Source of the DNA: a virus
Lineage: Duplodnaviria > Heunggongvirae > Uroviricota > Caudoviricetes
Reading direction: 5' to 3' (one strand)
IMG/VR virus record: IMGVR_UViG_3300019458_000004
Span: 1-64,000 of that record
Length of the DNA: 64,000 bases
The translations under genes and the position numbers were made by a program. Below the pieces are notes generated by a model that was given only the letters and a program-made list of their open reading frames with translations, was not told the origin of the DNA and searched no databases. Shown one piece after another: positions 133 to 61,096 of this stretch (its first letter is position 1; every line of letters begins with the position of its first letter).

Positions 133-141
133 AAAGTTAAT

Positions 142-405
142 ATGGATTACGAGAAGGAATTGTTGCATGAAATGTCTAAGGCTTTAGAAAGATTAGATAA
201 ATCTGTTGATGGGATTAATATTACTATTGCTAAACAAGAGGTTCATTTAGCTGAGCATATTCGTCGTACTTCTTTACTTGAAGAAGAAATGAAACCAATT
301 CGTGATCATGTCAATCGTGTTAATGCTTTAATTTTACTTCTTGGTGGGATTTTGGCTCTTCTCGGTGCTGTTAAGGCTGTTATTGAGATTGTTCAACTCT
401 TCTAA
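142..405 (+). CDS. hypothetical small protein, coiled-coil N-terminus and C-terminal TM helix
   Basis: 87-aa ORF with a hydrophobic C-terminus (ALILLLGGILALLGAVKAVIEIV). It overlaps the 3' end of the convergent minus ORF. Confidence 0.35.
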   Translation: MDYEKELLHEMSKALERLDKSVDGINITIAKQEVHLAEHIRRTSLLEEEMKPIRDHVNRVNALILLLGGILALLGAVKAVIEIVQLF

Positions 406-735: not shown

Positions 736-754
736 GCTACGTCTACTACGTTTT

Positions 755-12902: not shown

Positions 12903-13416
12903 TTACTTCCTTTTATCTAAAAGCTTTTTCGGTGGAGAACCTAGAATTATTTCGGTGTTTCCATCATGACCATGAATTGTTCGAATCTGTTCTAAATTAT
13001 CAAAAATAGACATAGTTTCAAAGCCAATGCTTCGCCATTCAAGGATAGCTCGATGTGATTCTAAAATAATACCTCGCGCAACAACTCCTGTTCCACTAAC
13101 CCCAGAGAGATCCTTCTTTCTTAACAAATAAAATTCCTGAAGTTTCATTTTACCTTCCCACAAATAGTACAAACCTCTTCCATTGTAGCAAATCCTTGGT
13201 ATCTCTAGATCCAAAAGTATCTAGTCCAAAGTAATAAGTCTTTTGTGAAATAATAACACTCATAATATCAACATCATCAATACTATTTTCGTCTGTGCTA
13301 GGCACAAAAGTTCCGTGGCAATGAGAACCCCGATAGGCAGTTAAAATTGCGTGTTGAAAAGTATCTGCGTGTTCTTTTTCTATTTGTTCAAATGGTTTCA
13401 TTTTTAAAGACGCCAA
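12903..13416 (-). pseudogene. nucleotidyltransferase (pol-beta superfamily, YGS..G..SDxD type) split by a frameshift into two overlapping ORFs
   Basis: ORF 13150..13416 has YRGSHCHGTFVPSTDENSIDDVDIMSV (GS...D.D NTase signature). ORF 12903..13214 continues in another frame with a 65-nt overlap. Confidence 0.4.
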
Positions 13417-16301: not shown

Positions 16302-16492
16302 ATCACTTTTCTCACTTTTTTGTATTTAGTATCTATAGTTCCGATGCCTTTGCAAAAAGGACATGAAATCCATCTAGTATCATATCCATTACTTTCATAC
16401 CCGCTAGATATTTCCTTTTGCCCACTACAATAAAAACAAGTTTCAGTCACTATTTTCGTTTGTGACTTCTTCTTTCGGCTTCCATTCTTCAT
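16286..16492 (-). CDS. hypothetical zinc-ribbon protein
   Basis: CFYCSG...CPFCKG. Confidence 0.35.
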   Translation of the reverse strand: MKNGSRKKKSQTKIVTETCFYCSGQKEISSGYESNGYDTRWISCPFCKGIGTIDTKYKKVRKVIWERV

Positions 16493-26654: not shown

Positions 26655-26662
26655 TTTAAAAC

Positions 26663-26736
26663 CTGCGGGAACAGGGATTGAACCTGTCATAAGCTCATTA
26701 ACAGTGAGTTGTGTCCACCTTGTTCACCTTCCCGCA
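26663..26736 (-). tRNA. tRNA-Asn (anticodon GUU), no encoded CCA
   Basis: Hand-folded cloverleaf: acceptor TGCGGGA/TCCCGCA (7/7), D-arm GTG-AACAAGGTGGA-CAC, anticodon loop CUGUUAA, T-arm ACAGG-TTCAATC-CCTGT, discriminator G. Confidence 0.8.
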
Positions 26737-26743
26737 AAACTTT

Positions 26744-29414: not shown

Positions 29415-29484
29415 GATTAAACGAGAAGAGTCGAACTTCCATCTCTTGAAGTTAATCAAGCGCTTACCAACTAAGCTACGTCTC
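29415..29484 (-). ncRNA. tRNA-like element with non-canonical 6-nt anticodon loop (possible second Y-RNA/tRNA mimic or degenerate tRNA)
   Basis: Acceptor TGAGACG/CGTTTAA (one mismatch, one GU), D-arm GCTT-AGTTGGT-AAGC, stem CTTGA/TCAAG enclosing the 6-nt loop TTAACT, T-arm GGAAG-TTCGACT-CTTCT. Followed by GGCGUUUUUU. Confidence 0.4.
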
Positions 29485-29527
29485 ATACAGGTTGAGATAA
29501 CCGTTCAACTTTCGACCCGAATTTTAA

Positions 29528-29672
29528 AAATTTTCTGGATAAAAGGCGTCATGGGAAACCCCTTTCGGGAATGATTTGCTCTACCAACTGAGCTACAATC
29601 ATCTTTCGATGATTGACGGGATTCGAACCCGCGACCCAATCTCCATATAACCCATTAACTACGACCCAGAAA
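29528..29672 (-). ncRNA. Y-RNA-like ncRNA (YrlA-type) with permuted tRNA-like module, immediately downstream of the Ro60 orthologue
   Basis: On the minus strand: T-arm GCGGG-TTCGAAT-CCCGT, helix CAATCATC-GAAA-GATGATTG (acceptor-like stem closed by a GNRA tetraloop), D-arm GCTC-AGTTGGTA-GAGC, possible terminal stem UUUCUGG/CCAGAAA, then a U-run. The 5' end overlaps the last codons of the vWA ORF. Confidence 0.45.
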
Positions 29673-31218
29673 TAAACCTATTAATAACCTCAGTAACCGT
29701 AGAATCAAATCCCACAATTCGAAGAACGTTCTTATCGTTCATTTCAAAGTTTGAATATCCCCCAGCAACCATACCAACCTCAATAACCTTTACATCAAGA
29801 TTAATTTTACGATACAAAGCCAATTCTTGTACTGAGTGTGAATTACCAGCCCAAGTCTCGTTATCCGTTAGAATAACAATCACATCATACTTATTCTTAG
29901 TATGAAGAGCATACTTAATAGCTAGAGAACAGTCAGTTCCACCACCATTTGGCGTTCCACGAAGAATTTCATCAAGAGAATGCCTTCGACCAATTTGAGG
30001 CACCATAACCTTGGTATCAAACCAAATAAGCTCTGCATTAGCTTCAGAACGCATAATAGCCATTGAAAGAGCAGCCGATACATCCTTCGGAGTAAGTCTA
30101 GATTTATTAATCGTAGCCGAACTCATGCTGCCCGAAACGTCCACCGCCAAGAGAATACTCTTTCAAGTCGGCACAAGCACTTCTAAAGCCGCGTAATATG
30201 CGTTATTTAGGGCGTCATTGATGTTTTGATTGGGCGTCCACATCTTATTACCCAAATCGCCATGACCGCTGCTATAAACGCGTAGAGCATTTAATAGGGT
30301 CACAGAATGAACTTTAGATTTCTTAATGTTTTCAGCACTTAGCTTATTAACAATAGCCTTAGTCGTTTCACTGTTTCCAACCGTCATTCCGTTGCTAGCA
30401 AAACGGTTAAGATTACGAAGAAGAGCAAAAACTGGCATATTAACCAACAATGCATCAAGAATAGCCGGGGTATTCAATTGTTCATTAGGAATCATTTTCC
30501 AGGTCAAACGATATTCCTTAATGAATTCGGCAAGATCCTTGCCTTCCATCATTTGAGCTTTTTCAAAGGCAGCTAGAAGGTTATCTTCCGGAGCCGTTCC
30601 TTCTTCTTGAGTTAGATACTGGAAAATGTAATTATGTTCCGCCGAAGAAGCATGAGAAAGACGAAGAACGTCACGATGCTGAAAACCTTCACGATTTCGG
30701 TACTTTACAACTTGATACTCAACGTCCTTTGGCGTTTTAAGAGTATACCATTTAGAAACAGCAGTTCGAAGACCGCGTGACCAGCCACGAAGATTTTGCA
30801 CATTCGCTAGAAACATGAAAAGCTGAGTAGCGGTATTAAGAACACCAGGCATAGGAATTGCCGCATAAACCGCCTTTTTAACTTCCGCAGTTCCATGGGC
30901 AGCCAAAAGAGCCAATACAAATACAGAAGGATCAACCTTTGGAGCCTTCTTATTCTTCAAAACGTCAACAACAGTGCTAAGAACCTTAAACCCATCTTCC
31001 TTAATGTAATTAATTACAGCATTAGCATTTTCAACCGTTAAAGTCTGCTTATCAACATAATACGTTCCTTCTTCGGAACCAATAAGAAGAAATCGTTCAA
31101 GAAGTTCTTGATTGGTCACAGCAAAACTATAACCACCAGCATTATTCTTAACCATGGTTTTACCAGGAATAGGTTGTGTTTGATGCGTCTTTGAAATCAT
31201 TTTTGAGTAATTTCCCAT
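29659..31218 (-). CDS. rsr: Ro60/Rsr orthologue (TROVE domain + C-terminal vWA/MIDAS), interrupted by one in-frame TGA (30163-30165)
   Basis: ORF 30163..31218 is TROVE-like. ORF 29659..30150 has vWA MIDAS LAVDVSGSM..TDN. They are in the same frame and separated only by TGA: ..EVLVPT*KSILLAVDVSGSM. Confidence 0.7.
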
Positions 31219-31232
31219 TGTATTGTTCCTTT

Positions 31233-31448
31233 TTAATAATACGGATAAATAAATGTAAACCAGGGGTATTTTCCGATAAATAACCGGACTCCGTTCAAAA
31301 ACTCATCTGGTGTTTCCCAATCATCTTTTTTAGAAGAAAATAAAGCCTTTAGATTAGTATTAGGCTCCGGGGGATTATTAATTGTTTTATTAAACAATTC
31401 CCAGTCTTTTTCACTTAAAACGACTTTTTCTGTTTTTTCATCACTCAT
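31233..31448 (-). CDS. hypothetical protein
   Basis: 71-aa ORF. Confidence 0.35.
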   Translation of the reverse strand: MSDEKTEKVVLSEKDWELFNKTINNPPEPNTNLKALFSSKKDDWETPDEFLNGVRLFIGKYPWFTFIYPYY

Positions 31449-35767: not shown

Positions 35768-36122
35768 AAAAAGGATCGTGTAAAGGAACCAAAGTTAAAG
35801 GCAGTTGTAAAAGCTTAGTTAATCTTTCAAGAACTTGTTCTGAAGTATGCCCATCCCATTTATAGTTATCATCTCTTGGAATTCTTTGCTCAATTAAGGG
35901 TAAATATTTTTCTTCAAAATGGTAGCTAATTTGTCCGGCAGTTGTTTCAATAAAAAGAACCGGCCATCCAGGATAATGAGGCTTCCAAGCTTTTTGGCCC
36001 GGAAAATTTAAAACAAGATTTAAATACAATAAAATTCTATGTTGATAAAGTTCTTCAAAAGTATGGTATCCATCAGAAACTTTCCGTGTTTCTTCAACGG
36101 ATAATGGAATAATAACACTCAT
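35760..36122 (-). CDS. hypothetical protein
   Basis: 120-aa ORF. Confidence 0.4.
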   Translation of the reverse strand: MSVIIPLSVEETRKVSDGYHTFEELYQHRILLYLNLVLNFPGQKAWKPHYPGWPVLFIETTAGQISYHFEEKYLPLIEQRIPRDDNYKWDGHTSEQVLERLTKLLQLPLTLVPLHDPFYA

Positions 36123-37720
36123 TGATCTTTCTCCACTTTACAAATAGCACAGTTTTTACCATCATATGAAATTCTATTTGATTGTATCTCTTCTCGGTGT
36201 TTATCGCAACCGGGAATTGCTGCAAAATATTCACTTATAATTTCAGGGTAATCAGCCCCATCAATAATTTCTTCTTTAATAAGAGGCCATTTTTTAAATG
36301 CTAATTCATAAGCCCGACGATATATCCACATTTGATATCGAACAGTTAGAGGATTAAAAATCCGCACAATTTTTGAAAGATAATCAATATCAAAACACCA
36401 TAACCATTTTGGATATCTTGAATAGACATATCCTGGATGAGTTATTGAATGAAGTTGATACCATCCAAACCCACAATAAACTCGGGCGGTATTACCGCAC
36501 CAAACCGGCTTACCTTTTCTTCTAATTAATAATAACTGATTTGGTATACTAACACAATAGACCTTTCCGTCATAATCAACAATACTTTCTTTATTTTTTT
36601 GAAGATCATGGGAATTGTACAATTCGAATTCGTTGCTTTTTTTAAGCCAATTAACCGTTATCTCGGGGTAATTATGTTTAATTATTCGATTATTAATCAT
36701 TGTCGGATTTTGGGATCTAGTTCTAGTAGATGTCCGAAATGAGTAACCCGCCTTCATTAATAAAAGACTAACGTCTTGTTCGAGCCGTGCTGAGACAGTT
36801 GATATTATATTAGTTGTTTTAGTTTTCCAACCATCACCTAGATAAAGATTAATTAAAAATTCTTCAATTAATCGGGAAGCTAACCCATGAATAAATTCTG
36901 GCACTTTTTTGTTTTCGGCTAAATGCCCGCAATTATTTAACAACCAAATACCAAGTTGTTTTGAATAAATCGTAATAATATAAGCTGAATCTCGCTTAGT
37001 AGTCTTGTACTCAAATGGTAGTTCTTTTAGGATATTTTCGACACAGTGCTTCTCTTCTTCAATTGTACCATTTAAACATAGAACAATTTGACTTTCCTTT
37101 GACACGTACCCTTCGGCTACGAACCAACCTAAAAATCGAAGCCACGGAATTATAGAAAGTTTGAGTTCTTCCGCATAAAAAATTCTTGTCGAATTTTCAA
37201 TATTATTCCATTCATTTTGATATCTAGGTAAGTTAAAATATTTCGGATCGGTCCCTTTCCAACGAAATGACTTTAAAAACTTTTTCGGTTTAAAGAATAG
37301 TTCTTGGTAGGTTTGTAGCTCATAGGGGTAGCTCTTACCGTGACAATTGCTTTGCCCGCCGTAGGTCGATCCCTTAGCAATATATAACTTATGATCCAAA
37401 GTCACTTTTAAATCAACACCACGACTTTTAATTGAGTACAGTTTTTTATGGTCACTTTGCTCGTGATATTTTATTGCTTGTTGATAAATTAAGTAGTTGT
37501 CTTTGTCTAAAGTGGCGAATAAATCTCGATTAATGTCAATGTTTTTAAAAAGTTTCCAGCCATTATTTGTCAAAACCTCGGTTTGGTCATCATAGCATCC
37601 GTATTTTTCTTTCGTTTGTGTAACTCCGATTCTTCCATATTTACGGCAATAATCTCCAATAAATTGTGCAGCTCTTCCAACATCTCCAAAATATTTGAAA
37701 TCTCCTGACCAATCGTGCAT
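36119..37720 (-). CDS. unknown protein carrying a LAGLIDADG intein
   Basis: Intein block A CYDDQTEVLT, block B VTLDHK, LAGLIDADG-like WFVAEGYV and LYLGDGW, C-terminus ..VWCGN|T. Exteins (about 40 aa + about 150 aa) not recognised. Confidence 0.6.
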   Translation of the reverse strand: MHDWSGDFKYFGDVGRAAQFIGDYCRKYGRIGVTQTKEKYGCYDDQTEVLTNNGWKLFKNIDINRDLFATLDKDNYLIYQQAIKYHEQSDHKKLYSIKSRGVDLKVTLDHKLYIAKGSTYGGQSNCHGKSYPYELQTYQELFFKPKKFLKSFRWKGTDPKYFNLPRYQNEWNNIENSTRIFYAEELKLSIIPWLRFLGWFVAEGYVSKESQIVLCLNGTIEEEKHCVENILKELPFEYKTTKRDSAYIITIYSKQLGIWLLNNCGHLAENKKVPEFIHGLASRLIEEFLINLYLGDGWKTKTTNIISTVSARLEQDVSLLLMKAGYSFRTSTRTRSQNPTMINNRIIKHNYPEITVNWLKKSNEFELYNSHDLQKNKESIVDYDGKVYCVSIPNQLLLIRRKGKPVWCGNTARVYCGFGWYQLHSITHPGYVYSRYPKWLWCFDIDYLSKIVRIFNPLTVRYQMWIYRRAYELAFKKWPLIKEEIIDGADYPEIISEYFAAIPGCDKHREEIQSNRISYDGKNCAICKVEKDQ

Positions 37721-38316
37721 TAGTCTTCCTTTTTAAATTTAGGACAATAAGCTGAATGTTTTGAACTGCCAACTGCTTCGGAACCGCATTCACATTTTTT
37801 AGCTAAGTCAGTCATAGTTTTTCTTGGCGGCGCAGCTTCATCAACATAGTAATATGGATAATTTGGAATAGTGATTTCAACCGTTTGATCTTCTGGACAA
37901 TTGGGTTTATGAGAATTAATTTTCCCACCACAAGAACAAGTAGTAGCCAACGCATCCAATCCACCTATTTTAATTAAATCAAGAGCTTGTGTTGGTGTAA
38001 TAAGTTGGGCTTTAATTAAATTGATTGCAATATTTTGTTTTTCAATAGAAATCAATTCTCTCGGGTAATTAAACCAATGTTCTGGGCCTAATGGAACCGG
38101 GATAGTCCAAGGATCTGGCCATTCAGCAACAATGTCTAAGTCATTATCACCAATTGTAAGATAAAGACCTTCAGGAGACCATTTATTGATCATCCATCCC
38201 CAATCATCAGACAATACCGCACCGTGGATTGAATAAAAACCTCGACCATTCAAAGTATAAATACGAACTTTTCGTCCGTTTCTCGTTTTATAAAATTTAC
38301 CGAATTCAATCTTCAT
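37720..38316 (-). CDS. hypothetical protein
   Basis: 198-aa ORF with C-terminal Cys pairs. Confidence 0.4.
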   Translation of the reverse strand: MKIEFGKFYKTRNGRKVRIYTLNGRGFYSIHGAVLSDDWGWMINKWSPEGLYLTIGDNDLDIVAEWPDPWTIPVPLGPEHWFNYPRELISIEKQNIAINLIKAQLITPTQALDLIKIGGLDALATTCSCGGKINSHKPNCPEDQTVEITIPNYPYYYVDEAAPPRKTMTDLAKKCECGSEAVGSSKHSAYCPKFKKED

Positions 38317-39230
38317 TAATCCTCAATTTTTAAAGCCATCCATTCAGACTTACGCGCTTCTTTATATGCATCTAAAGCACTCTTTTCATTTGGGATAATG
38401 GTGTCTGCTGTGACTACAAATTCCCCAGAATGCGTAGCATTACTAATATGATTCTTATCAACCGTTATTTTAGATACAATCCCATATCCCTTTTCCTGCC
38501 CAGAAACTACTGCCTTTAAAGTCTTAGCCTTTTTCGTTCTAATTACAAGAGAAGAGCTAAAATAGATGCCATCGCCTCCATATGGCACAACGGTAGTCGG
38601 ACCCCCTGGAAACTGCGGCGGCTGCTTATAAGCGTGATTAACGAAAACTAGACCTACTGAGAAGGGGCTTGTCGTCTTTCTGGTATTATTAATCTTATGG
38701 CTAAATACCCGCATCTTTTCTCGGATAACCTTAGCAGCTTTCATCATTGCGCCGCCCATTTCAACCGTACCGTCCTTATTTTCGGTCACCGAATCTACTG
38801 ATACCGTATTACCAATAGAATCTACAAAGATCATGATATTCATGGGAAGCTTACCCATTACAACATCTGAAGTAACCCGGTCAATTTTCGTAAAGATATC
38901 CTCAAGATATTGAGCATGTTCCACAATACAATTATCAACATCAACTCCCATAGCCTTGGCTCGATCCCAAGATACCTTATTTTCGGTAATAATGAATACT
39001 GGTAGAATACCTTGAGCCTGGGCTTGGGCCGCTGCATGGAAAACGAGCGACGTTTTGCCGCTATCTGATAATCCAAATAACTGAGTGATATGTCCAAGAG
39101 GCAATCCTGGTAAACCTAAAACCGATTGCAAAGCAGTATTTAATTGAACATATAAATCCATTTTTAAGGGCGTATCTGCTACTTGAATAGACTTTTTATA
39201 TTCCGAAAGATCGAATCCCTTCTTTTTCAT
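38316..39230 (-). CDS. RecA-family recombinase (UvsX/Sak4-like)
   Basis: Walker A GLSDSGKTS. RecA-fold layout. Confidence 0.55.
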   Translation of the reverse strand: MKKKGFDLSEYKKSIQVADTPLKMDLYVQLNTALQSVLGLPGLPLGHITQLFGLSDSGKTSLVFHAAAQAQAQGILPVFIITENKVSWDRAKAMGVDVDNCIVEHAQYLEDIFTKIDRVTSDVVMGKLPMNIMIFVDSIGNTVSVDSVTENKDGTVEMGGAMMKAAKVIREKMRVFSHKINNTRKTTSPFSVGLVFVNHAYKQPPQFPGGPTTVVPYGGDGIYFSSSLVIRTKKAKTLKAVVSGQEKGYGIVSKITVDKNHISNATHSGEFVVTADTIIPNEKSALDAYKEARKSEWMALKIED

Positions 39231-39388
39231 TTCACAACCTTAATAATCCAAAGTATAAAATCCGCCAACAAAACACCTAAAGCGACAACAATAATGTCAA
39301 TAGTAGTTCCTAAACTAAAGAGTTTCTTTTTATAGCTCCGCCTTTGAGCTTTGGTTGGGAACTTAATTACATTTTTGAATCGTTCCAT
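39227..39388 (-). CDS. small membrane protein (53 aa), below the ORF-track threshold
   Basis: MERFKNVIKFPTKAQRRSYKKKLFSLGTTIDIIVVALGVLLADFILWIIKVVK. ATGA overlaps at both ends. Confidence 0.35.
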   Translation of the reverse strand: MERFKNVIKFPTKAQRRSYKKKLFSLGTTIDIIVVALGVLLADFILWIIKVVK

Positions 39389-39882
39389 CACAATCCTAAA
39401 ATTCTCAGTGCTGCTCGGCGCTCATTTCTTGATACGCGGTCAGTAAAAAAGATTCCTTGTAAGTGATCAAATTCATGCTGAAAACAAATTGCTTCAATTT
39501 CATTCAAAATTCCTTCTCTAAGATTACCATATCGATCCTGGTATTGTACATAGATTTCTTCATGTCTTGGAATTGTAAGGAAAACTCCCGGTGCTGAAAG
39601 ACACCCTTCGTTAATATTAATGTATTCTTTTGATTTTTCTAGTATTTTTGGATTAATGAATTCTAGTGTTTCACTTTGCCCGTCTTTAAAACGGGCTTGG
39701 GATTTCATTATAAATACTGATTTTCGTTCATTAACTTGGTTGGCGGATAGGCCAATACCACGTTCGGTAATCATTATTTGCCGCATTTCATCTAATAAAG
39801 AACGAAGATTATCATCAAAAGCAATAACTTCTGTGGTTTTTTGAGTTAAAATAAAATTTGGATATTTAACAATTTTTCGCAT
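39388..39882 (-). CDS. def: peptide deformylase
   Basis: Three PDF motifs: GIGLSANQ, EGCLS, QHEFDHLQG. Confidence 0.85.
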   Translation of the reverse strand: MRKIVKYPNFILTQKTTEVIAFDDNLRSLLDEMRQIMITERGIGLSANQVNERKSVFIMKSQARFKDGQSETLEFINPKILEKSKEYININEGCLSAPGVFLTIPRHEEIYVQYQDRYGNLREGILNEIEAICFQHEFDHLQGIFFTDRVSRNERRAALRILGL

Positions 39883-40011
39883 CTTTTATTTTTTGTTTAA
39901 TTAATTTGTTAGCATGCTTAATAATTGGGGTAAAATCAATAAAAAGATTACCTTTTTTATCCTTATCAATTTTTAGTTTAACGCCTGTAAATTCTTTAAT
40001 TTCGAGTTTAA

Positions 40012-40356
40012 TCATAGTAATTTTAATTCCTTGGTAATTTGATCAATTAGTTCTGCTTCTGCTGGCCCAATTGCTACGGCGGTGTATGTTGGTTCTTTAA
40101 ATTCTGTTTTCCCAATATCGAGAACTAGGTAAGCCGGTAACCCCTCCATTTTGGCAAAATGATAAGCATCTGTGAGTTCTTTTTCAGAATCAACGCCAAC
40201 ACAAATCTTTACGCCGTTAAACCCATTTCTCCAAGTATCAATATCTTTTTGAGGAGTTAATAAAAAAGCACCAATAGATGCATGAGCGCCTTGGGCAACC
40301 ATTTTGCCCTTTCTCATATTTAAATCTTTTCGAAGAATTATTACTTGCTTCATCAT
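40012..40356 (-). CDS. pth2: peptidyl-tRNA hydrolase, PTH2 family
   Basis: KQVIILRKDLNMRKGKMVAQGAHAS matches the PTH2 signature (VVR.DL.M..GK.AAQ..HA). Confidence 0.7.
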   Translation of the reverse strand: MMKQVIILRKDLNMRKGKMVAQGAHASIGAFLLTPQKDIDTWRNGFNGVKICVGVDSEKELTDAYHFAKMEGLPAYLVLDIGKTEFKEPTYTAVAIGPAEAELIDQITKELKLL

Positions 40357-40601
40357 TCCGTTTTATAAAGTTTAGTAGTTACTCGAACTTCTGGTGTAAT
40401 TCCTTTATCAGAAATATATAAAAAGACTTTACAAGCTTTTTGTTGTTTGTCCATGAATGATAGAGTAAGTGCTGCTCCGCCTTGTTCTTCATCAAATTCT
40501 AAATATTCAGACAATCCATTCTTCTGAACATATTCCACAGCCAATTGTAGGTCTTTTAATTTAATTCTTAGCATTGTTAAATCTTTTATTAAGAGAAACA
40601 A
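40353..40601 (-). CDS. hypothetical protein
   Basis: 82-aa ORF. Confidence 0.35.
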   Translation of the reverse strand: MFLLIKDLTMLRIKLKDLQLAVEYVQKNGLSEYLEFDEEQGGAALTLSFMDKQQKACKVFLYISDKGITPEVRVTTKLYKTE

Positions 40602-40854
40602 TTACATCACTTGCGTGTTCTAAAGCTAATCGCTTGTATTTTAGTTCGCGGTTTAAGGAAAACGGGGATTCTCTTAGTTGAGAAAAAGCAGCCTCTAATA
40701 CAAATACTGTAAGATAATAACTGTCAAAAGCTTGCACATACGTTTGAATATTAGTAAACATTTCTTCGTAAAATACTCGCCCTTTTGGGCACTCAATACG
40801 CGCTACAATATATTTTTTATGGGCATCGAGAGATTTTAAAACAAGATCTTTCAT
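40561..40854 (-). CDS. hypothetical protein
   Basis: 97-aa ORF. Confidence 0.35.
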   Translation of the reverse strand: MKDLVLKSLDAHKKYIVARIECPKGRVFYEEMFTNIQTYVQAFDSYYLTVFVLEAAFSQLRESPFSLNRELKYKRLALEHASDVIVSLNKRFNNAKN

Positions 40855-41543
40855 TTCTTACCCACCAATTCTCTAGTCATTATAGCCGCACTTTGGGAGC
40901 TTCCGCTCATTATGATCCCAAAGCCTTCTACATCTTTCCCATCTCGCCAATCAGTAACAACGGGTCCATAATTAGAAAACTTGTGCTTCTTATCTTCTGA
41001 CACACCATTTCCAATTACACGAAAATACTGGCTTTGGAAATTATAACACGAGGGATAATAATTACAATTCCCTTTTTCTAATTTTGTATTCCAATTACCT
41101 GAAGCAGTTATAAAGTATATCTTGTGTTTTAAAAGTTTTTCAATTATTTGTTTTTCGAGAAAATCGGTTCTATCTCCACCGGAACTAAAATTTACATGTG
41201 TGGCCTTTTCTTTTAGTGCTATTTTTAATCCTTTAACTTCTGTTTCAGCGGAACCGGAAAAGTGGTAATACTTAATAATTAATAAACAGAATTGGTTGGT
41301 ATCAATTTGTTTAGCAATAATGCCGGCTATATTTGTTCCGTGGCCATGCCAATCTTCAATGCCTTTCCCAGTAATATCGTAATGTTTTCCATAACATAAA
41401 TACTTCTTAGTTTTTTCGTTAACTTCAATGCCGGTATCAATAACAGCGATTTTATTTCTATATTCAATTGCCTTAGTATTATAGAAATCCGGTGCTGGGT
41501 AGTTTAAAAGAAGACTACCAAATAAATAATAAAAGAAGTTCAA
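40851..41543 (-). CDS. subtilisin-like (S8) serine peptidase
   Basis: Asp VIDTGI, His HGHGT, Ser GSSQSAA in canonical order. Confidence 0.55.
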   Translation of the reverse strand: MNFFYYLFGSLLLNYPAPDFYNTKAIEYRNKIAVIDTGIEVNEKTKKYLCYGKHYDITGKGIEDWHGHGTNIAGIIAKQIDTNQFCLLIIKYYHFSGSAETEVKGLKIALKEKATHVNFSSGGDRTDFLEKQIIEKLLKHKIYFITASGNWNTKLEKGNCNYYPSCYNFQSQYFRVIGNGVSEDKKHKFSNYGPVVTDWRDGKDVEGFGIIMSGSSQSAAIMTRELVGKK

Positions 41544-41689
41544 TTACCACCAATTTAAAATACGTCCATAAAGAGGTAAATAAAAAGCAAGGGCTGCTAA
41601 TTGGGCAAAAATAGAATCCCTTTTCCTTTCTCCTAAAACGATTCCAAGAGCCATAATTTGCAACCCTAGCAAAAAATATACATAGTAGT

Positions 41690-41902
41690 TCACTTTATTT
41701 CCTTTCGTGGTCGGCCTCTTTTACGCTTAGTCGGTAAAACATCTAAACTACGAACAGAAGCAGCTTCAACCAACACAGGTCTAGTATTATCTCCGGTTAA
41801 AATAACATATAGTTCTTTAGAATTTAAAACAGCAAAAACATATCCTTCAATCTCTTTACCATTTGGCATTGAAACAACAACTTTTTCACGAAATTGATAC
41901 AT
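41690..41902 (-). CDS. hypothetical protein with AT-hook-like tail
   Basis: KRKRGRPRK at the C-terminus. Confidence 0.35.
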   Translation of the reverse strand: MYQFREKVVVSMPNGKEIEGYVFAVLNSKELYVILTGDNTRPVLVEAASVRSLDVLPTKRKRGRPRKEIK

Positions 41903-41926
41903 GGTTTAATGATACCAAATAATACA

Positions 41927-42367
41927 TTAAAAGCAACTTTTTAATTGTTGAAAGTATCTATCCCAATCGGCTTGTGTATAATCTTTAATATTATGAGCAC
42001 TTTCGTACATTATGTCTTTTTCATTAGGGGTATGGTCTAATCCAAAGCAATGTCCGATTTCGTGATGCACAACCGGTTTAAAGTATTCCTTCTCAATAAA
42101 GATAATTGGGCTTAATTCAATAAAACAATCAAAATATTGTTCTGTGGCTTGGCCTAGAATGTATTCCCCTAATTCGACTTTCTTAAATAAAAAAGATTTA
42201 TTTTTATATTGATTAGTATCTTGAAGAATTGTGCTTATTTCTTCAGTTTCTTCTTTAGTAAATCCTTGAAAACTTGGTACAATTTGTTGCGTTGGAGGGA
42301 TTTTAGCGGCCCAAACAAGAATAATTAAAGTAAGAACATTATATGGGTTTAAAACTAACTGCCGCAA
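41927..42367 (-). CDS. secreted metzincin-type zinc metallopeptidase
   Basis: Signal/TM N-terminus. HEIGHCFGLDH (HExxHxxGxxH). Confidence 0.55.
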   Translation of the reverse strand: MRQLVLNPYNVLTLIILVWAAKIPPTQQIVPSFQGFTKEETEEISTILQDTNQYKNKSFLFKKVELGEYILGQATEQYFDCFIELSPIIFIEKEYFKPVVHHEIGHCFGLDHTPNEKDIMYESAHNIKDYTQADWDRYFQQLKSCF

Positions 42368-42771
42368 GAAGATTTCTTTCTTTGTCTATAAATAATTTTT
42401 AAAGCTTGCCCGATTATCTTAAATTCTTCACTAGTAAAATTATTGCTCCTTAATTTATCGCAGAAAATACAAGAAACGACTAAATTATTTTTTTCATACC
42501 CGATATTATTATCTAATCTATCGAGATTATAAGCTCTAGAAATAAATTTACCTTTTATGGTTCCATAAGGAACCCAATTAATTTTTTTGTCACAATAGTA
42601 ACAATTTTGGGTTTGAGTAAATATTAAAAATTCCTCGTAAGTTAATTCAACTTTTGTTTTTCGATGATCTCTTTTTATTCCTTCATAAATCGATTCAAAT
42701 GGTTTTTTTCTACGGCTACAAATCCTACAAATTTGTTTTCTCGATTTTAGTTCTGAACTTCTAATTTTCAA
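42355..42771 (-). CDS. HNH endonuclease (HNH_3-like)
   Basis: CYYCDKK...YNLDRLDNNIGYEKNNLVVSCIFCDKLR. Confidence 0.6.
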   Translation of the reverse strand: MKIRSSELKSRKQICRICSRRKKPFESIYEGIKRDHRKTKVELTYEEFLIFTQTQNCYYCDKKINWVPYGTIKGKFISRAYNLDRLDNNIGYEKNNLVVSCIFCDKLRSNNFTSEEFKIIGQALKIIYRQRKKSSCGS

Positions 42772-42872: not shown

Positions 42873-44768
42873 TCATTTAATTGGACACACCCCTGTTTGA
42901 CATTCAAACTCGTCTAATAAGTCGGTTTCTTTTAACTCACAAGATATAATTGGTTTAGTTTTTTCTTTAAGTTCTAAATATCTTTCCTCAGAGATAGCTT
43001 CATAAGGAGCTTGGGAAAATCCATGATCTTTATGTAGTAAAAAACTAACAGTTTTAACTGAATCATTGTAATTCTTTTTTAACCACGCTTTAATTTCAGC
43101 CAACTCTTCTTTTTTATAATAAATTGTACAAGAAACAGAGTTATCTGACCAATCGGTTTGTAATCGTTTTACATATTCGAGTTGCTCTATAGCTTTAATA
43201 TCTGATGCAAATATAGTGCCTTCTGGGTAACTGCATGGAAATTCAATAACTACTGTATTGTGATCGTCAGTTCCATCGAAATTCTTTTGAAATTCAGCAA
43301 AATAACCGTGTTCTCTGCATACTTTTACCAATTTAGAATTAGCAGCCATTCGAATTCTTCTTATAAAAAATTGAGAAAATCCTGGGTGTATCCCAGGTGT
43401 TACTCCTGGAAGCAATGAAAGTGTTCCAGAAGGTTTACAGGTTGTCAATTTAATAGACCTAGGCCATTTCATTTTTTTTGAATATTGTTTGTCAAACTCT
43501 CTTAAATAATCATAAGTTTCGGATAACCAGCTTTTCTTTTCCTCAGAACTCTGTAAATATCCAGTAACTCCGATGCCCATTCGAAAGTTTTTATGAACAA
43601 TTTTTTCAGTTTCCTCATGATGAGCAGGAAGAGCTAAACTATGTTTACATATTCTATATAAAAAACAAGTTATTTCTTTTAACTCTTCCTTATTTTGTAC
43701 ATTGGGTAAAAAGATCTCTGCTAGACAACAGGTTTCTTTATCATTAAGTCCTTGTTCGGCACACGGATTATATCCAATAATTTCAAGATCTTTATATTTT
43801 TTCTGTCCTAATCTACCACAAGAACGTGAAAGTTCAAGATTAACTAACCCATATGGCTCTCCTTGTCCGCCATATCCCGACCAGAACTGTTCAGGAAGTT
43901 TATTAATGTCATTACAAACTACAGAATTGTTAGAAAATGCGCGCCAATTAGGAATATTACCTAAATCCCACCTTTTGGCATTTAAAAATTGTAAGTCATC
44001 CATATCCCCTAAAGCCAATTGTGCAGATCTTCTAACATTTCCAGCAACAACAATATAAGCAATAATATTCATTATATCTAAAGCATCAATTGGTCTTAAC
44101 TTTTTTCCAGAACGACTATTTAATAACTTACTAATTTCACCAATACCCCAACACAATTCATTTGGTCCAGAAGCTACCCCTCCAAATCCTTTAATAGATT
44201 CACCCTTTCCTCGCACAAGAATGGTTGAATATGAAAAAGACTTTCCAGTATAAAAGTGACTCTCTAATGTTTTTTCTAACAAACGAACCCATCCTGTTCT
44301 AGAATCTGGAACAATAAAATCAGCGTCTTTGGTATCGTTTCGAATGATCTCTGCTTTTTTTATTTTAGGTAACTCGTAAACGTACTCTCTTTGGATATTA
44401 TAACCGACGCCGCATCCCAACATTAAAGCGTCCATTGTCCAAACAAATGGACGAATTGGGTGATTAACCAACGTCGCTGCACAGTTTTGAAGTGACATTA
44501 GCCCAAGTTGTTCTACAGTTTTTGTTCCAAGTTGCCATTTAAACCTTCCCGCAACGGAGCATTTTAATTTAAGAAAATATTCTCTAAGTTTTTTTAATTC
44601 TTCATTATTAAATCCAGTATTTAATTGAGTTTGGCAGGCATTTAAAATACGATCAATATTTTGAGGGTACTCTTCAGTTAGTGAATCATTATTTTCATCT
44701 AATCTTCGGGCATAAGTTCTTTTATATGTGATATAACCTAATGGCCCCCATGGGATTTCAAAAGACAT
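42873..44768 (-). CDS. ribonucleotide reductase-like protein (class II, B12-dependent type)
   Basis: GYNPCAEQGL...ETCCLAEIFL resembles the class II NPCGE active-site motif. C-terminal Cys cluster. Confidence 0.5.
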   Translation of the reverse strand: MSFEIPWGPLGYITYKRTYARRLDENNDSLTEEYPQNIDRILNACQTQLNTGFNNEELKKLREYFLKLKCSVAGRFKWQLGTKTVEQLGLMSLQNCAATLVNHPIRPFVWTMDALMLGCGVGYNIQREYVYELPKIKKAEIIRNDTKDADFIVPDSRTGWVRLLEKTLESHFYTGKSFSYSTILVRGKGESIKGFGGVASGPNELCWGIGEISKLLNSRSGKKLRPIDALDIMNIIAYIVVAGNVRRSAQLALGDMDDLQFLNAKRWDLGNIPNWRAFSNNSVVCNDINKLPEQFWSGYGGQGEPYGLVNLELSRSCGRLGQKKYKDLEIIGYNPCAEQGLNDKETCCLAEIFLPNVQNKEELKEITCFLYRICKHSLALPAHHEETEKIVHKNFRMGIGVTGYLQSSEEKKSWLSETYDYLREFDKQYSKKMKWPRSIKLTTCKPSGTLSLLPGVTPGIHPGFSQFFIRRIRMAANSKLVKVCREHGYFAEFQKNFDGTDDHNTVVIEFPCSYPEGTIFASDIKAIEQLEYVKRLQTDWSDNSVSCTIYYKKEELAEIKAWLKKNYNDSVKTVSFLLHKDHGFSQAPYEAISEERYLELKEKTKPIISCELKETDLLDEFECQTGVCPIK

Positions 44769-49693: not shown

Positions 49694-50257
49694 ATGATAA
49701 CGGCGATTTATTTAAGAGTGTCCACCCAAGATCAATCTACTGATTCACAACGTGCTGAAATTGATTTATTTATTAAAGCAAAAGGCTATACAAACTTTCG
49801 GGTTTATGAGGATAAAGCAACCGGCACTAATAACAATAGGCCAATGCTTAAGAAGTTATTGCAAGACTGCCACGCTGGGCAGGTTAGCATTGTAATATGC
49901 TACAAATTAGACAGATTCTTCCGTTCTCTTAAAGATCTAATTAATACGCTGCAGCAATTAGACGAATTAAAGATTGCTTTTATTTCATTACGTGACAACG
50001 TAGATCTTTCAACCCCTTCTGGTCGCCTAATGATGCATATGATCGGCGCATTCGCTGAATTCGAAGCAAGCCTTATTCAGGAACGCGTTAAAAGCGGTTT
50101 AAAGGCAGCCAAACAGCGAGGGGTTGTCTTGGGTCGGCCCAAGCTTCACGAACCCTCTATAGCCCGTTTAATGCGAAAACAAGGGCATTCTATAAGAGAG
50201 ATCAGCCGAAAGTTAAACATTCCGAAGAGCACAGTTAACGAATTAATTAGAACATAG
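49694..50257 (+). CDS. small serine recombinase (resolvase/DNA-invertase family, Hin/Gin-like)
   Basis: IYLRVSTQDQ (catalytic Ser), DRFFRS, C-terminal HTH IREISRKLNIPKSTV. 187 aa; the only plus-strand gene inside the minus block. Confidence 0.85.
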   Translation: MITAIYLRVSTQDQSTDSQRAEIDLFIKAKGYTNFRVYEDKATGTNNNRPMLKKLLQDCHAGQVSIVICYKLDRFFRSLKDLINTLQQLDELKIAFISLRDNVDLSTPSGRLMMHMIGAFAEFEASLIQERVKSGLKAAKQRGVVLGRPKLHEPSIARLMRKQGHSIREISRKLNIPKSTVNELIRT

Positions 50258-59208: not shown

Positions 59209-59643
59209 ATGTCAGATAATATTGATCAACTTGCACAAAACTTTAAAACCCTAAAAGAATTACGTCAATATTGTGATAGTCAATATCGGGTGATTGTTCA
59301 ATTAAATAAAAAAATTGTTTCATTAGAAGAAGAAAATAAACATTTAAAAGAAATGCTCACCAAATCTACCCCAATTCTTGAAGAAGAAAACGAAACAATT
59401 GCCATCTATAAAGATATTACTGATGAACTTGCTGTTTGTCTAATGCAAATTAAACTTCTTCGTGATCGTTGTTCAAACGGAATGACCGAATTAACTTTCG
59501 AAGAAGCAAAAAAGTTAGATATTTACACAAAACTCCTTATTCAATTAAAAACCGGAGAAAAGCCAGAAGAAAGTCTTACGAAAACATTATCAGATGAAGA
59601 ACTTTTAAAGCTTTTAAACGAAGAAATTTCTAAAAATGGATAA
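59209..59643 (+). CDS. putative terminase small subunit (positional)
   Basis: 144-aa coiled-coil protein directly upstream of and overlapping the large terminase. Confidence 0.35.
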   Translation: MSDNIDQLAQNFKTLKELRQYCDSQYRVIVQLNKKIVSLEEENKHLKEMLTKSTPILEEENETIAIYKDITDELAVCLMQIKLLRDRCSNGMTELTFEEAKKLDIYTKLLIQLKTGEKPEESLTKTLSDEELLKLLNEEISKNG

Positions 59644-61096
59644 GAAGCTTATCAGTAAAAGAGCAGCAACAGATGAATTATGGCGTCGAGGTGCTTTATC
59701 TTTATTTAAACTAGACGAAGCCCAAAAAGATTTCTCTGAAAAAATTAAAGCTTCTCCTGATAAAATCATTATTATTCTTTCCTCGCGGCGTATTGGTAAA
59801 ACTTTTGGCGCCCTCGTTCTGGCGGCGGAAACCTGCTTAAAAAAATCCGGAGCCGTAGTTAAGTTTCTAGCCCCAACTAAAATAATGATTAATGACATTG
59901 TTGAAAAAACAATGCCCCTTATTTTTGAAGATTGTCCTGAAGAATTAAAGCCACAACAGTTAAAAAGTAAATATACTTATAAATTTCAAAATGATTCACG
60001 ATTAGAACTCGCCGGAGCCGATTCCGGCCATGCCGAAAAACTTCGTGGTAGTTTTGCCGATCTTTGTATTGTAGATGAAGCGGGATTTTGTAACGACTTA
60101 ACGAATACTGTGCGTAGTGTTCTTATTCCGACCACAACTAATACCAAAGGAAAAATTATTCTTTTGAGCACTCCGCCAACTGATCCTGAGCATGATTTTA
60201 TGAAATTTGTCGAGGAAGCGGATCTAAAAGGGACATTGATAAAAAAGACGATTTATGATAATCCACGTATTAAACCGGATGAAATTGCTGAAATTCTAGC
60301 AGCCTATCCTGGTGGTGCCAATCACCCAGACTTTAAGCGCGAATACCTTTGTATTGTACAAAAGAACTTAGAATATGCGGCTGTTCCAGAATTCACTGAT
60401 GAATTAGAAAAAGAAATTGTGGTTAATTGGGAAAGACCTCCCCACTTTGATTACTACGAATCTATGGATTTAGGTGGGAAAGATTTAACCGTTGTTTTAT
60501 TTGCTTATTTTGATTTTCGAAAAGCTGTAATTGTGATTGAAGACGAATTGGTTATGAACTTTCAAGAGAAAGATAATCATATTGGTCTTTTAGTAAGACA
60601 GATTAAAGAAAAAGAAGCCCAACATTTCTCCGATGTCCTTGTTCATGAGGTTAAACTGCCTTTTTTGAGGGTTTCAGATATCGATTATATTGCTTTGGGC
60701 GAGATTCGAAAACATAGTAATAATACTATTGATTTCAAGCTAGCTAAGAAAGACGACAAGCCTGCGGCAGTTAACAACTTACGTATAATGCTTTCGAACA
60801 AACGGATTATGATTAATCCGCGTTGTAAGACATTAATTAAGCACCTTAGAAACGTTAAGTGGTCTAAGAGCAACCGTAATGTGTTTGACCGGTCGGTGGA
60901 CATGGGACACTACGATGCCGTGGACGCGTTAATTTACCTTACCCGCTCCATAGTATTTAGTAAAAATCCATATCCGGCTAATTTCGGTTTAAATCAAACA
61001 GACTTAATATTTCTAGGTGATTCGAACAAACCCCGAGAATCGGCGGTTGATGTTTTTAAGACTATTTTTAAAGTAGGGAAAAAATATGGCCGATAA
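59636..61096 (+). CDS. terL: terminase large subunit
   Basis: Walker A-like ILSSRRIGKTF, Walker B LCIVDEAGF, C-terminal nuclease-like domain. Confidence 0.8.
   Translation: MDKKLISKRAATDELWRRGALSLFKLDEAQKDFSEKIKASPDKIIIILSSRRIGKTFGALVLAAETCLKKSGAVVKFLAPTKIMINDIVEKTMPLIFEDCPEELKPQQLKSKYTYKFQNDSRLELAGADSGHAEKLRGSFADLCIVDEAGFCNDLTNTVRSVLIPTTTNTKGKIILLSTPPTDPEHDFMKFVEEADLKGTLIKKTIYDNPRIKPDEIAEILAAYPGGANHPDFKREYLCIVQKNLEYAAVPEFTDELEKEIVVNWERPPHFDYYESMDLGGKDLTVVLFAYFDFRKAVIVIEDELVMNFQEKDNHIGLLVRQIKEKEAQHFSDVLVHEVKLPFLRVSDIDYIALGEIRKHSNNTIDFKLAKKDDKPAAVNNLRIMLSNKRIMINPRCKTLIKHLRNVKWSKSNRNVFDRSVDMGHYDAVDALIYLTRSIVFSKNPYPANFGLNQTDLIFLGDSNKPRESAVDVFKTIFKVGKKYGR

What the first reader, a model, noticed from the sequence alone, without database searches (positions are those of the whole stretch)
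39388..40356. Adjacent peptide deformylase and PTH2-type peptidyl-tRNA hydrolase
A bona fide PDF (all three motifs) sits one small gene away from an archaeal/eukaryotic-type Pth2 (KMVAQGAHAS signature), a family not typical of bacteria. Together with the tRNA, the tRNA-like RNAs and Ro60, this points to a translation/RNA-quality module in the phage.
Basis: partly seen in the sequence, partly recalled or inferred. Interest (0 to 1): 0.5.

Follow-up and report, generated by a model that had tools for sequence, protein, structure and literature searches.

The report
Phage deformylase and Pth2 hydrolase cassettes
An uncultured large phage carries two intact translation-upkeep enzymes side by side, a peptide deformylase and an archaeal-type peptidyl-tRNA hydrolase, but sibling phages carry one or the other at the same spot, so these are two independent accessory genes of already known kinds and not a dedicated two-gene machine.

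Summary
On the minus strand lie Pth2 (40012-40356, 114 aa), a conserved 49-aa ORF (39866-40015) and a type-1B peptide deformylase (39388-39882, 164 aa). Both enzymes match their families full-length above curated cut-offs. Their catalytic residues and motifs are intact, and AlphaFold models superpose on solved Pth2 and PDF structures (TM about 0.9). The window is part of a tailed-phage genome of at least 89 kb with no close cultured relative.

The "module" reading does not hold. Sibling contigs share the flanks p82 (68-76% aa) and RecA/UvsX (88-93% aa). Between them they carry only p49-PDF-p54 (L153, L235-237; PDF also in L151, L152), or only Pth2 (L234). Only the window has both. The gaps in the siblings coincide with the gene boundaries, to within a few bases. 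Further afield, 2 of 83 Pth2-centred loci and 1 of 64 PDF-centred viral loci hold the partner within 10 kb.

Phage Pth2 and phage PDF are both already described. The Ro60/YrlA-like locus is real but lies about 8 kb away, behind recombination genes.

Best reading: two independent, probably active auxiliary genes that keep tRNA recycling and N-terminal processing going during infection. A counter-defence role for Pth2 remains possible. Interest is low to moderate.

The parts
40012..40356 (-). Pth2-type peptidyl-tRNA hydrolase gene (114 aa). It is a single-gene cassette, absent from six of the seven sibling contigs.
   Evidence: PF01981 E=7.2e-32 full length. TIGR00283 108.3 bits against a cut-off of 82. 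Best PDB sequence match is 2zv3, M. jannaschii Pth2, E=7e-27. Model pLDDT 95, TM 0.84-0.92 to 2zv3/1wn2/1xty/3erj/1q7s. K18, D80 and T84 are invariant in 34 homologues. Window 40013-40352 has no counterpart in L235-237, and the gene is absent from L151-153.
39866..40015 (-). Small 49-aa Lys-rich ORF of unknown function that travels with PDF.
   Evidence: No family hit. It is conserved directly upstream of PDF at 77-83% aa identity in L153 and L235-237. It is absent from L152, L151 and L234.
39388..39882 (-). Peptide deformylase, type 1B-like (164 aa). It is present at this position in six of the seven sibling contigs and absent from L234.
   Evidence: PF01327 E=4.6e-46. TIGR00079 142.8 bits against 103.95. 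Three motifs are intact. Model pLDDT 94.4, TM 0.84-0.92 to P. falciparum, H. pylori and E. coli PDFs. The eta3 element (146-149) and a short alpha3 helix (152-161) are predicted. Siblings are 65-73% identical at the same position.
39227..39391 (-). 54-aa ORF with a hydrophobic C-terminal segment. It is the third member of the p49-PDF-p54 block.
   Evidence: Conserved at 72-81% aa in L152, L153 and L235-237. Window 39228-40007 (p49-PDF-p54) has no counterpart in L234. No family hit.
40353..40601 (-). Conserved upstream flank (p82, unknown function). It marks one edge of the variable slot.
   Evidence: 67-76% aa identity in L151-153 and L234-237. Its TGA overlaps the Pth2 ATG.
38316..39230 (-). 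RecA/UvsX-like recombinase. It is the conserved downstream flank of the variable slot.
   Evidence: PF00154 E=6.7e-18 and PHROG 97 UvsX-like. 88-93% aa identity in all seven sibling contigs. In L234 it abuts Pth2 directly.

Best explanation
The region holds two independent accessory ('auxiliary') genes, in the early/middle replication-recombination gene block of an uncultured tailed phage of at least 89 kb. (1) A type-1B-like peptide deformylase belongs to a p49-PDF-p54 block that six of the seven sibling contigs carry at this position. It is inferred to remove the N-formyl group from nascent phage proteins, and from dropped-off fMet-peptidyl-tRNAs, when host deformylase capacity is limiting. 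(2) A Pth2-type peptidyl-tRNA hydrolase was gained, or kept, as a single-gene cassette immediately upstream. It is inferred to cleave the ester bond of free peptidyl- or N-acyl-aminoacyl-tRNA so that tRNAs are returned to translation. Because it is unrelated to the bacterial Pth1, it would work independently of the host enzyme. The two genes are adjacent because both sit in one hypervariable slot between the conserved p82 and RecA/UvsX genes. They do not form an obligate pair. Shown here: the family membership, intact catalytic residues and fold of both enzymes, their operon-like packing, and their presence/absence polymorphism among siblings. Inferred, not shown: enzymatic activity, time of expression and benefit to the phage.
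For: Identity and integrity of the enzymes. Phage context: terminase at 59636-61096, portal, intein-bearing PolB, DnaB, ThyX, class II RNR and RecA/UvsX, nearly all on one strand. Independence of the cassettes: L151, L152, L153 and L235-237 share M10-p70-S8-p97-p82-...-PDF-...-RecA and have no Pth2. L234 has p82-Pth2-RecA with no PDF; its Pth2 is 88-89% and its RecA 90% identical to the window's. In DNA alignment A2 the window's extra stretch relative to L153 is the Pth2 ORF, from start to stop. By blastn, window 40013-40352 is missing from L235-237 and 39228-40007 from L234. The closest other Pth2 genes (63-80% identity) sit in unrelated neighbourhoods. Only 2 of 83 Pth2-centred loci and 1 of 64 PDF-centred viral loci hold the partner within 10 kb, and there PDF lies upstream of Pth2, the opposite order to the window. 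Biochemical link: in E. coli, dropped-off formyl-peptidyl-tRNAs are deformylated by PDF and need Pth for recycling (PMC10192219). Viral PDFs are active deformylases in vivo (PMC5591237). Phage Pth2 is read in the literature as a tRNA-recycling or ribosome-rescue factor (PMC7824862; PMC5852040).
Against: No activity, expression or host data exist. The host is unknown, so it cannot be shown that its own enzyme is a Pth1 or that it is limiting. Only ±3-10 kb of each sibling contig was read, so a Pth2 or PDF elsewhere in those genomes is not excluded. No top-120 Pth2 homologue sits on a contig of matching length, which is weak evidence against a second copy. That two translation-related cassettes land in the same slot could itself reflect a shared selective pressure. 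That would make them functionally linked even though they are separable.
Confidence: 0.72

Rival explanations
1. Counter-defence reading. Pth2, perhaps together with PDF, is carried mainly to undo host abortive-infection attacks on translation. It would hydrolyse N-acetyl-aminoacyl-tRNAs made by GNAT toxins of the TacT/AtaT type, or clear peptidyl-tRNAs left after tRNA- or ribosome-cleaving effectors. In this it would cooperate with the phage's RNA-repair genes.
For: In other viral contigs Pth2 recurrently neighbours RNA-repair and ribosome-rescue genes: an RF-1/GGQ release-factor-like protein (about 6-9 loci), RlaP (about 8), PNKP (5) and a metallophosphatase (8) out of 84 loci. This phage also encodes Rsr/Ro60 with a YrlA-like RNA, an AAA_33 kinase-like protein and an orphan TacA1-like antitoxin (25.4 bits against a cut-off of 21), all 8-10 kb downstream. 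Pth reverses TacT acetylation of aminoacyl-tRNA (PMC9241777). Iyer et al. place phage PTH2 in RNA-damage responses. The presence/absence polymorphism among siblings is typical of arms-race genes.
Against: In this window Pth2 is not next to any RNA-repair gene; its neighbours are small unknown ORFs, PDF and RecA. BLAST found no RlaP, GGQ or PNKP homologue in the window. The TacA-like hit is short, covering profile positions 43-77 of 80. No host toxin is known. The neighbourhood associations are minority patterns, each 6-10% of loci.
Confidence: 0.2
2. PDF and Pth2, with the tRNA, tRNA-like RNAs and Ro60, form one co-selected translation/RNA-quality module.
For: They are on the same strand, with overlapping stop and start codons. 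Both enzymes act on the same substrate pool, fMet-peptidyl-tRNA. Three other viral contigs hold both genes within 3-7 kb (L022, L066, L075). The Ro60/YrlA-like locus and tRNA-Asn lie in the same long transcription direction.
Against: Siblings with 88-93% identical RecA carry only one of the two genes at this locus. The closest Pth2 genes sit in other contexts. The partner is missing from about 97% of loci centred on either gene. Ro60 is about 8 kb away and tRNA-Asn about 13 kb away, separated by DNA recombination and repair genes.
Confidence: 0.06
3. One or both genes are decaying passengers or assembly artefacts with no function for the phage.
For: Both are dispensable in some siblings. A nearby gene, Rsr, carries an in-frame TGA.
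Against: Both ORFs are full length and match their profiles end to end. Catalytic residues are intact and models are high-confidence. GC and GC3 match the neighbouring genes. The identical protein is recorded from three contigs and three source collections. The homologues show conservative substitution patterns.
Confidence: 0.02

Closest known systems
Phage-encoded PTH2 peptidyl-tRNA hydrolases (e.g. Mycobacterium phages Myrna and Baka, Sinorhizobium phiM12 group, jumbo phages Atu_ph07, XacN1 and RsoM2USA; discussed in Iyer et al. 2021, PMC7824862)
   Same: Same family and size, about 112-130 aa. Identity is 37-53%. The K/D/T residues and the fold are the same. In each case it is a single accessory gene in a large phage.
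   Different: No near relative is known: the best cultured-phage hit is 53% identical. Here the gene sits in a RecA-proximal variable slot next to a PDF. It is not next to tRNA arrays or RNA-repair genes.
Archaeal and eukaryotic Pth2 (M. jannaschii MJ0051 2zv3, P. horikoshii 1wn2, S. solfataricus 1xty, human PTRH2/Bit1 1q7s)
   Same: 32-52% identity, TM 0.84-0.92, rmsd 1.1-2.8 Å. The GKGK-x-AQ-x-HA and D-x-G-x-T segments are conserved.
   Different: It is encoded by a phage of a presumably bacterial host. The phage and bacterial clade has its own invariant DLNMRKGK and TEF(K/x)EPT signature.
Viral peptide deformylases (cyanophage S-SSM7 PDF 3uwa; Vibrio phage Vp16 PDF; marine 'type 4' viral PDFs)
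   Same: It is a catalytically intact PDF carried as a phage auxiliary gene, and it is shorter than cellular PDFs.
   Different: It is only 31-39% identical to PDFs in the listed phage records. The published viral PDFs are described as lacking the ribosome-binding C-domain. This clade keeps eta3 and a 10-residue basic alpha3 helix, with a conserved tail SR(N/Q)xRRAAL+xLG(L/I)K. Its nearest solved structures are type-1B PDFs of Plasmodium, Helicobacter and plant plastids.
Bacterial Pth1 and lambda bar-minigene / pth(rap) biology (own knowledge, not tested here)
   Same: The same reaction and the same logic apply: phage growth is sensitive to peptidyl-tRNA hydrolase capacity.
   Different: Pth1 is an unrelated fold. 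Lambda depends on the host enzyme, whereas this phage brings its own.

Membership tests
PTH2 peptidyl-tRNA hydrolase (PF01981 / TIGR00283) | Full-length profile match above the curated cut-off | tested here: met
   Pfam 110.4 bits against 23, profile 1-115/115. TIGR00283 108.3 bits against 82. NF003314 scores 115.1 bits, below its stricter cut-off of 126.
PTH2 peptidyl-tRNA hydrolase (PF01981 / TIGR00283) | Pth2 alpha/beta fold: a four-stranded sheet with flanking helices | tested here: met
   AlphaFold model pLDDT 95.0. The top 13 Foldseek PDB hits are all Pth2 crystal-structure chains with TM 0.84-0.92; rank 14 is the NMR model 1rzw (TM 0.56). The next fold has E=0.036.
PTH2 peptidyl-tRNA hydrolase (PF01981 / TIGR00283) | Active-site Lys, Asp and Thr (S. 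solfataricus K18, D86, T90). The residue assignment is from my memory of Fromant et al. 2005; the paper was not available. | tested here: met
   K18, D80 and T84 are invariant in 34 homologues. They align with the conserved K, D and T of 2zv3, 1wn2, 1rzw and 1q7s.
PTH2 peptidyl-tRNA hydrolase (PF01981 / TIGR00283) | Hydrolysis of peptidyl- or N-acyl-aminoacyl-tRNA | not testable with these tools
   Needs pth(ts) complementation or an in vitro assay.
Peptide deformylase, type 1B (PF01327 / TIGR00079) | Full-length profile match above the curated cut-off | tested here: met
   Pfam 156.7 bits against 22.8. TIGR00079 142.8 bits against 103.95, and NF001159 135.6 bits against 125.
Peptide deformylase, type 1B (PF01327 / TIGR00079) | [quoted passage not shown] | tested here: met
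   The sequences are GIGLSANQ (42-49), EGCLS (92-96) and HEFDHLQG (136-143). The Ser for Ala in motif I is shared with active P. falciparum PDF, GIGLSAPQ.
Peptide deformylase, type 1B (PF01327 / TIGR00079) | PDF fold | tested here: met
   pLDDT 94.4. TM 0.84-0.92 to the top 50 PDF chains listed, including E. coli PDF.
Peptide deformylase, type 1B (PF01327 / TIGR00079) | C-terminal domain: eta3 plus the long alpha3 helix that docks on the ribosome | tested here: inconclusive
   eta3 (146-149) is present. alpha3 is only 10 residues (152-161), against about 20 in E. coli (E. coli length from own knowledge). The tail is strongly conserved in the phage clade. Ribosome binding was not tested.
   Six sibling contigs have PDF only, and one has Pth2 only, at the same locus. 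2 of 83 Pth2-centred and 1 of 64 PDF-centred viral loci hold the partner within 10 kb.
   The genes are on the same strand with ATGA stop/start overlaps. The same packing holds for nearly every gene in the block. The promoter scan is not above shuffled expectation, 36 against 32.5±6.1.
Rsr/Ro60-Y RNA ribonucleoprotein (context only) | TROVE plus vWA protein with an adjacent YrlA-type RNA | tested here: inconclusive
   TROVE/Rsr 203 bits (NF041674, below its cut-off of 900) and vWA_Ro60 E=6e-41. The YrlA hit scores 38.7 bits, E=6e-6, below the gathering score of 69. The reading frame is broken by one in-frame TGA. The locus is about 8 kb from the PDF/Pth2 pair.

The most novel reading that the evidence does not exclude
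Sibling phages carry Pth2 only, PDF only, or both, in one hot-spot; several of these contigs come from closely numbered sequencing runs. The most novel reading not excluded is that the two cassettes are alternative or additive answers to a single host pressure. That pressure would be an abortive-infection mechanism that floods the cell with blocked (formyl-, acetyl- or peptidyl-) aminoacyl-tRNAs. Phage Pth2 and this short-tailed PDF clade would then be genuine anti-defence genes acting on free acylated tRNA, not housekeeping boosters.
Probability: 0.12. Interest if true: 0.6.

Novelty: new member of a known kind. Interest (0 to 1): 0.25.

Why it matters
Phage PDFs and phage Pth2 genes are both widespread, yet the benefit to the phage has not been measured for Pth2 and only partly for PDF. 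This locus offers a natural allelic series (both genes, PDF only, Pth2 only) in otherwise near-identical backbones. That is a ready-made design for testing what each gene buys the phage. It also shows that the side-by-side position, tempting to read as an operon with a joint function, is a by-product of a gene-exchange hot-spot. This is a useful caution for guilt-by-association annotation in phage genomes. The distinct conserved C-terminal tail of this PDF clade is a small addition to the picture of viral PDFs as tail-less enzymes.

Tried and rejected
- Sensitive blastn of 38000-42000 against GenBank phages gave only 56-89-nt matches inside Pth2. There is no close cultured relative.
- A single-protein Pth2 scan of IMG/VR found nothing. 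An alignment-based scan was needed.
- The neighbour clustering suggested an RlaP link to the window. This was an artefact of shared intein sequence, and tblastn found no RlaP, GGQ or PNKP homologue in the window.
- Promoter and terminator scans were uninformative. Promoter-like sites were at shuffled expectation, and the terminator-like hairpins near the pair fall inside coding sequence.
- p49, p54, p82 and p97 have no Pfam or PHROG hit, and p82 and p97 have none in NCBIfam either.
- The Pth2 structural paper (PMC2253226) is not held. Two reviews did not list the catalytic residues, so that assignment rests on memory plus the invariance seen here.
- Host inference failed. The terminase is 30% identical to a Silvanigrella phage and RecA 31% to Flavobacterium phages.
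- Pth2 GC and GC3 (0.37 and 0.26) are within the range of the neighbouring genes, so composition gives no sign of recent foreign origin.
- A whole-genome TGA recoding was considered because of the in-frame TGA in Rsr. It was rejected because TGA ends p82, Pth2 and p54.

Full report
**1. What is in the sequence**

The region 39227-40601 carries five tightly packed ORFs on the minus strand. In order of transcription they are:
- p82 (40353-40601)
- a 114-aa ORF (40012-40356)
- p49 (39866-40015)
- a 164-aa ORF (39388-39882)
- p54 (39227-39391)

A RecA/UvsX-like recombinase follows at 38316-39230. The stop of p82 and the start of the 114-aa ORF share ATGA. So do the stop of that ORF and the start of p49. 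p49 overlaps the 164-aa ORF by 17 nt (read).

The 114-aa protein matches Pfam PTH2 end to end (E=7.2e-32). The 164-aa protein matches Pep_deformylase end to end (E=4.6e-46). Both pass NCBIfam equivalog cut-offs, TIGR00283 and TIGR00079. PHROGs files them under phrog_1866 (no function assigned) and phrog_2890 (peptide deformylase).

**2. Are the enzymes intact?**

*Pth2.*
- The best solved relative is M. jannaschii Pth2 (2zv3, E=7e-27). Next come the P. horikoshii, A. fulgidus, human Bit1/PTRH2 and S. solfataricus enzymes.
- In an alignment of 34 homologues, K18, D80 and T84 are invariant.
- These residues correspond to K18, D86 and T90 of the S. solfataricus enzyme, which I recall as the mutationally defined active-site residues.
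- An AlphaFold model (pLDDT 95.0) superposes on the Pth2 crystal structures at TM 0.84-0.92. No other fold scores better than E=0.036.

*PDF.*
- Motif I is GIGLSANQ, motif II EGCLS and motif III HEFDHLQG. The motif definitions are from Grzela et al. 2017.
- The Ala-to-Ser change in motif I is shared with active P. falciparum PDF.
- The model (pLDDT 94.4) matches type-1B PDFs at TM 0.84-0.92.
- Viral PDFs have been described as lacking the ribosome-binding C-domain. This protein keeps eta3 (146-149) and a 10-residue alpha3 helix (152-161).
- Its clade has a strongly conserved basic tail, SR(N/Q)xRRAAL+xLG(L/I)K.

**3. What genome is this?**

The identical Pth2 protein is recorded on an 89,293-bp ENA metagenome contig. 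Pfam annotation of that contig gives:
- a large terminase (59636-61096) and a portal
- an intein-containing family-B DNA polymerase and a DnaB helicase
- ThyX, dUTPase and dCMP deaminase
- a class II ribonucleotide reductase
- RecA/UvsX, a PD-(D/E)XK nuclease and endonuclease VII

From about position 300 to 54500 almost all genes are on the minus strand, and GC is about 0.35. It is a tailed phage with no close cultured relative. The terminase is 30% identical to a Silvanigrella phage and RecA 31% to Flavobacterium phages. The host is unknown.

**4. Is the adjacency meaningful?**

This is the key result. PDF homologues at 62-73% identity led to sibling contigs. L151, L152, L153 and L235-237 share the order M10-like peptidase, p70, S8 peptidase, p97, p82..., PDF..., RecA with the window. 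Their RecA is 88-93% identical to the window's. None has Pth2. Between p82 and PDF the contigs differ:

| Contig | Content between p82 and PDF |
|---|---|
| L153, L235-237 | only the p49 homologue (77-83% identical) |
| L152 | nothing |
| L151 | an unrelated 87-aa ORF |

A DNA alignment shows that the window's extra stretch relative to L153 is the Pth2 ORF, from its ATG to its TGA.

Conversely, the closest Pth2 (P0002, 88% identical over the full length) lies on L234. There the order is p82, Pth2, RecA, with ATGA overlaps on both sides. The p49, PDF and p54 genes are absent. By blastn, window 40013-40352 is missing from L235-237 and window 39228-40007 is missing from L234.

So Pth2 and the p49-PDF-p54 block are separable cassettes in one variable slot between two conserved genes. 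The window phage is the only one seen with both.

Further afield:
- The next-closest Pth2 genes (63-80% identical) sit in other neighbourhoods: RlaP-Pth2-PhageMetallopep, ClpP-Pth2, or with a PDF 7.3 kb away.
- Of 83 other Pth2-centred loci, only L066 and L075 have a PDF within 10 kb.
- Of 64 PDF-centred IMG/VR loci, only L022 has a Pth2 within 10 kb. In all three cases PDF lies upstream of Pth2, the opposite order to the window.

**5. The wider "translation/RNA-quality" claim**

The Ro60 elements are real:
- a TROVE ORF (30163-31218) and a vWA_Ro60 ORF (29659-30150)
- a YrlA-like RNA at 29548-29655 (38.7 bits, E=6e-6, below Rfam's gathering score)
- a second tRNA-like element with a six-base anticodon loop at 29416-29485
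- tRNA-Asn at 26662-26737

An AAA_33 kinase-like ORF and a TacA1-like small ORF lie just upstream of TROVE. These features are 8-13 kb from the PDF/Pth2 pair. They are separated from it by RecA, an intein-bearing ORF, PD-(D/E)XK and endonuclease VII. So there is a common theme but no contiguous module.

In other viral contigs Pth2 does recur next to RNA-repair or ribosome-rescue genes. These are an RF-1/GGQ protein, RlaP, PNKP and a metallophosphatase, each in about 6-10% of 84 loci. This agrees with the published view of phage PTH2 (PMC7824862).

**6. How it most likely works**

*Shown:* two intact enzymes packed among early/middle genes.

*Inferred, PDF:*
- It removes N-formyl groups from nascent phage proteins when synthesis outruns host capacity.
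- Viral PDFs complement def mutants.

*Inferred, Pth2:*
- It hydrolyses peptidyl-tRNAs released from ribosomes and so returns tRNA to the pool.
- From memory, archaeal Pth2 rescues E. coli pth(ts). Also from memory, lambda growth is sensitive to host Pth through its bar minigenes.
- Being unrelated to Pth1, it would be indifferent to whatever limits or targets the host enzyme.

*Link between the two:* in E. coli, dropped-off formyl-peptidyl-tRNAs are deformylated by PDF and accumulate when Pth fails (PMC10192219). The two reactions therefore meet on one substrate pool. The comparative data say nevertheless that each gene is useful on its own.

*Main rival:* a counter-defence role for Pth2, for example against tRNA-acetylating GNAT toxins, whose products Pth hydrolyses. 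It is favoured by the neighbourhood data in other phages, by the TacA-like ORF and by the gain/loss pattern. Nothing adjacent to the gene in this window supports it.

**7. Comparison with what is known, and novelty**

- Phage Pth2 is annotated in 47 GenBank phage records: mycobacteriophages, the Sinorhizobium phiM12 group and several jumbo phages. It has been discussed in print.
- Phage PDF matches 165 records and has been characterised structurally and functionally.
- Pth2 is not confined to archaea and eukaryotes. A pattern-limited scan found 253 relatives in cellular genomes, many in Chitinophaga and Myxococcota.
- New here are a divergent member of each family, their juxtaposition, the natural three-allele series at one locus, and a PDF clade with a conserved short basic tail.

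This is a new member of known kinds, of low to moderate interest.

Noticed in passing
window 29659-31218 (-): The Rsr/Ro60 homologue is interrupted by a single in-frame TGA between the TROVE part and the vWA part (...EVLVPT*KSILLAVDVSGSMS...), just before the MIDAS-like DVSGSMS. It could be a nonsense mutation, a sequencing error, a genuinely split protein or programmed read-through. TGA is used as an ordinary stop elsewhere in the block.
   Followed up: partly
window 29416-29655 (-): Directly downstream of the Ro60 vWA ORF lie a YrlA-like RNA (29548-29655; 38.7 bits, E=6e-6, below the gathering score of 69) and a second tRNA-like element (29416-29485; Rfam tRNA 42.6 bits). ARAGORN gives the latter a two-base 'anticodon' because its loop has six bases. 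Together they look like a phage Ro60-Y RNA pair.
   Followed up: partly
window 31233-31448 (-): A 71-aa ORF just upstream of TROVE matches the C-terminal part of the TacA1 antitoxin family (PF08681, 25.4 bits against a cut-off of 21, profile 43-77/80). No GNAT toxin gene is next to it. It may be an orphan antitoxin used against host tRNA-acetylating toxins.
   Followed up: partly
window 36119-37720 (-) and 16443-19076 (-): There are two intein-bearing genes. The family-B DNA polymerase has Intein_splicing and LAGLIDADG hits. In the 533-aa ORF, residues 1-61 and 410-533 match 163-164-aa proteins in siblings L151, L153 and L235. About 350 aa of LAGLIDADG-type intein are therefore inserted in a small protein of unknown function.
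   Followed up: partly
window 42873-44768 (-): The ribonucleotide reductase here (631 aa, RNR-II insertion domain) is only about 22% identical to the 543-545-aa RNR at the same position in siblings L151-L153. This looks like a non-orthologous replacement at a conserved locus. An extra HNH-like 138-aa ORF (42355-42771), which has no tblastn match in those siblings, follows it.
   Followed up: no
alignment A3; window 39388-39432 (-) (PDF residues 150-164): The phage PDF clade (P0121-P0147) shares a conserved short basic C-terminal tail, SR(N/Q)xRRAAL+xLG(L/I)K, predicted to be a 10-residue helix. This differs both from long cellular C-domains and from the tail-less viral PDFs described so far.
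   Followed up: partly
IMG/VR loci L104, L117, L121, L129, L133 and others; L118, L120, L128; L067, L068, L096, L112-L114: In other viral contigs Pth2 recurrently neighbours a release-factor-like RF-1/GGQ protein (PF00472), PNKP (AAA_33+HAD_PNKP), RlaP (PF10127) and a 'PhageMetallopep' protein (PF18894). In six loci the PF18894 ORF ends within a base or two of the Pth2 start.
   Followed up: partly
window 12903-13214 (-): A small ORF carries a Pfam Acb5 (PF26761) hit in the precomputed annotation of the ENA contig. It may be an anti-defence protein.
   Followed up: no
window 49694-50257 (+): A serine recombinase (Resolvase, PF00239) gene lies on the opposite strand, where the long minus-strand block gives way to the structural genes. 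It may be an integrase or invertase, which would bear on the phage's lifestyle.
   Followed up: no
window 1-911: By coordinate mapping (record position = 90205 - window position), the 89,293-bp ENA contig k141_894898 ends at about window position 912. The window therefore comes from a longer or differently permuted assembly of the same phage.
   Followed up: no
window 40851-41543 (-) and 41927-42367 (-): A subtilase (S8) and a small HEIGH zinc metallopeptidase (M10-like) lie just upstream and are syntenically conserved in the siblings. Both have hydrophobic N-termini suggesting export. Their role in a phage is unclear.
   Followed up: no
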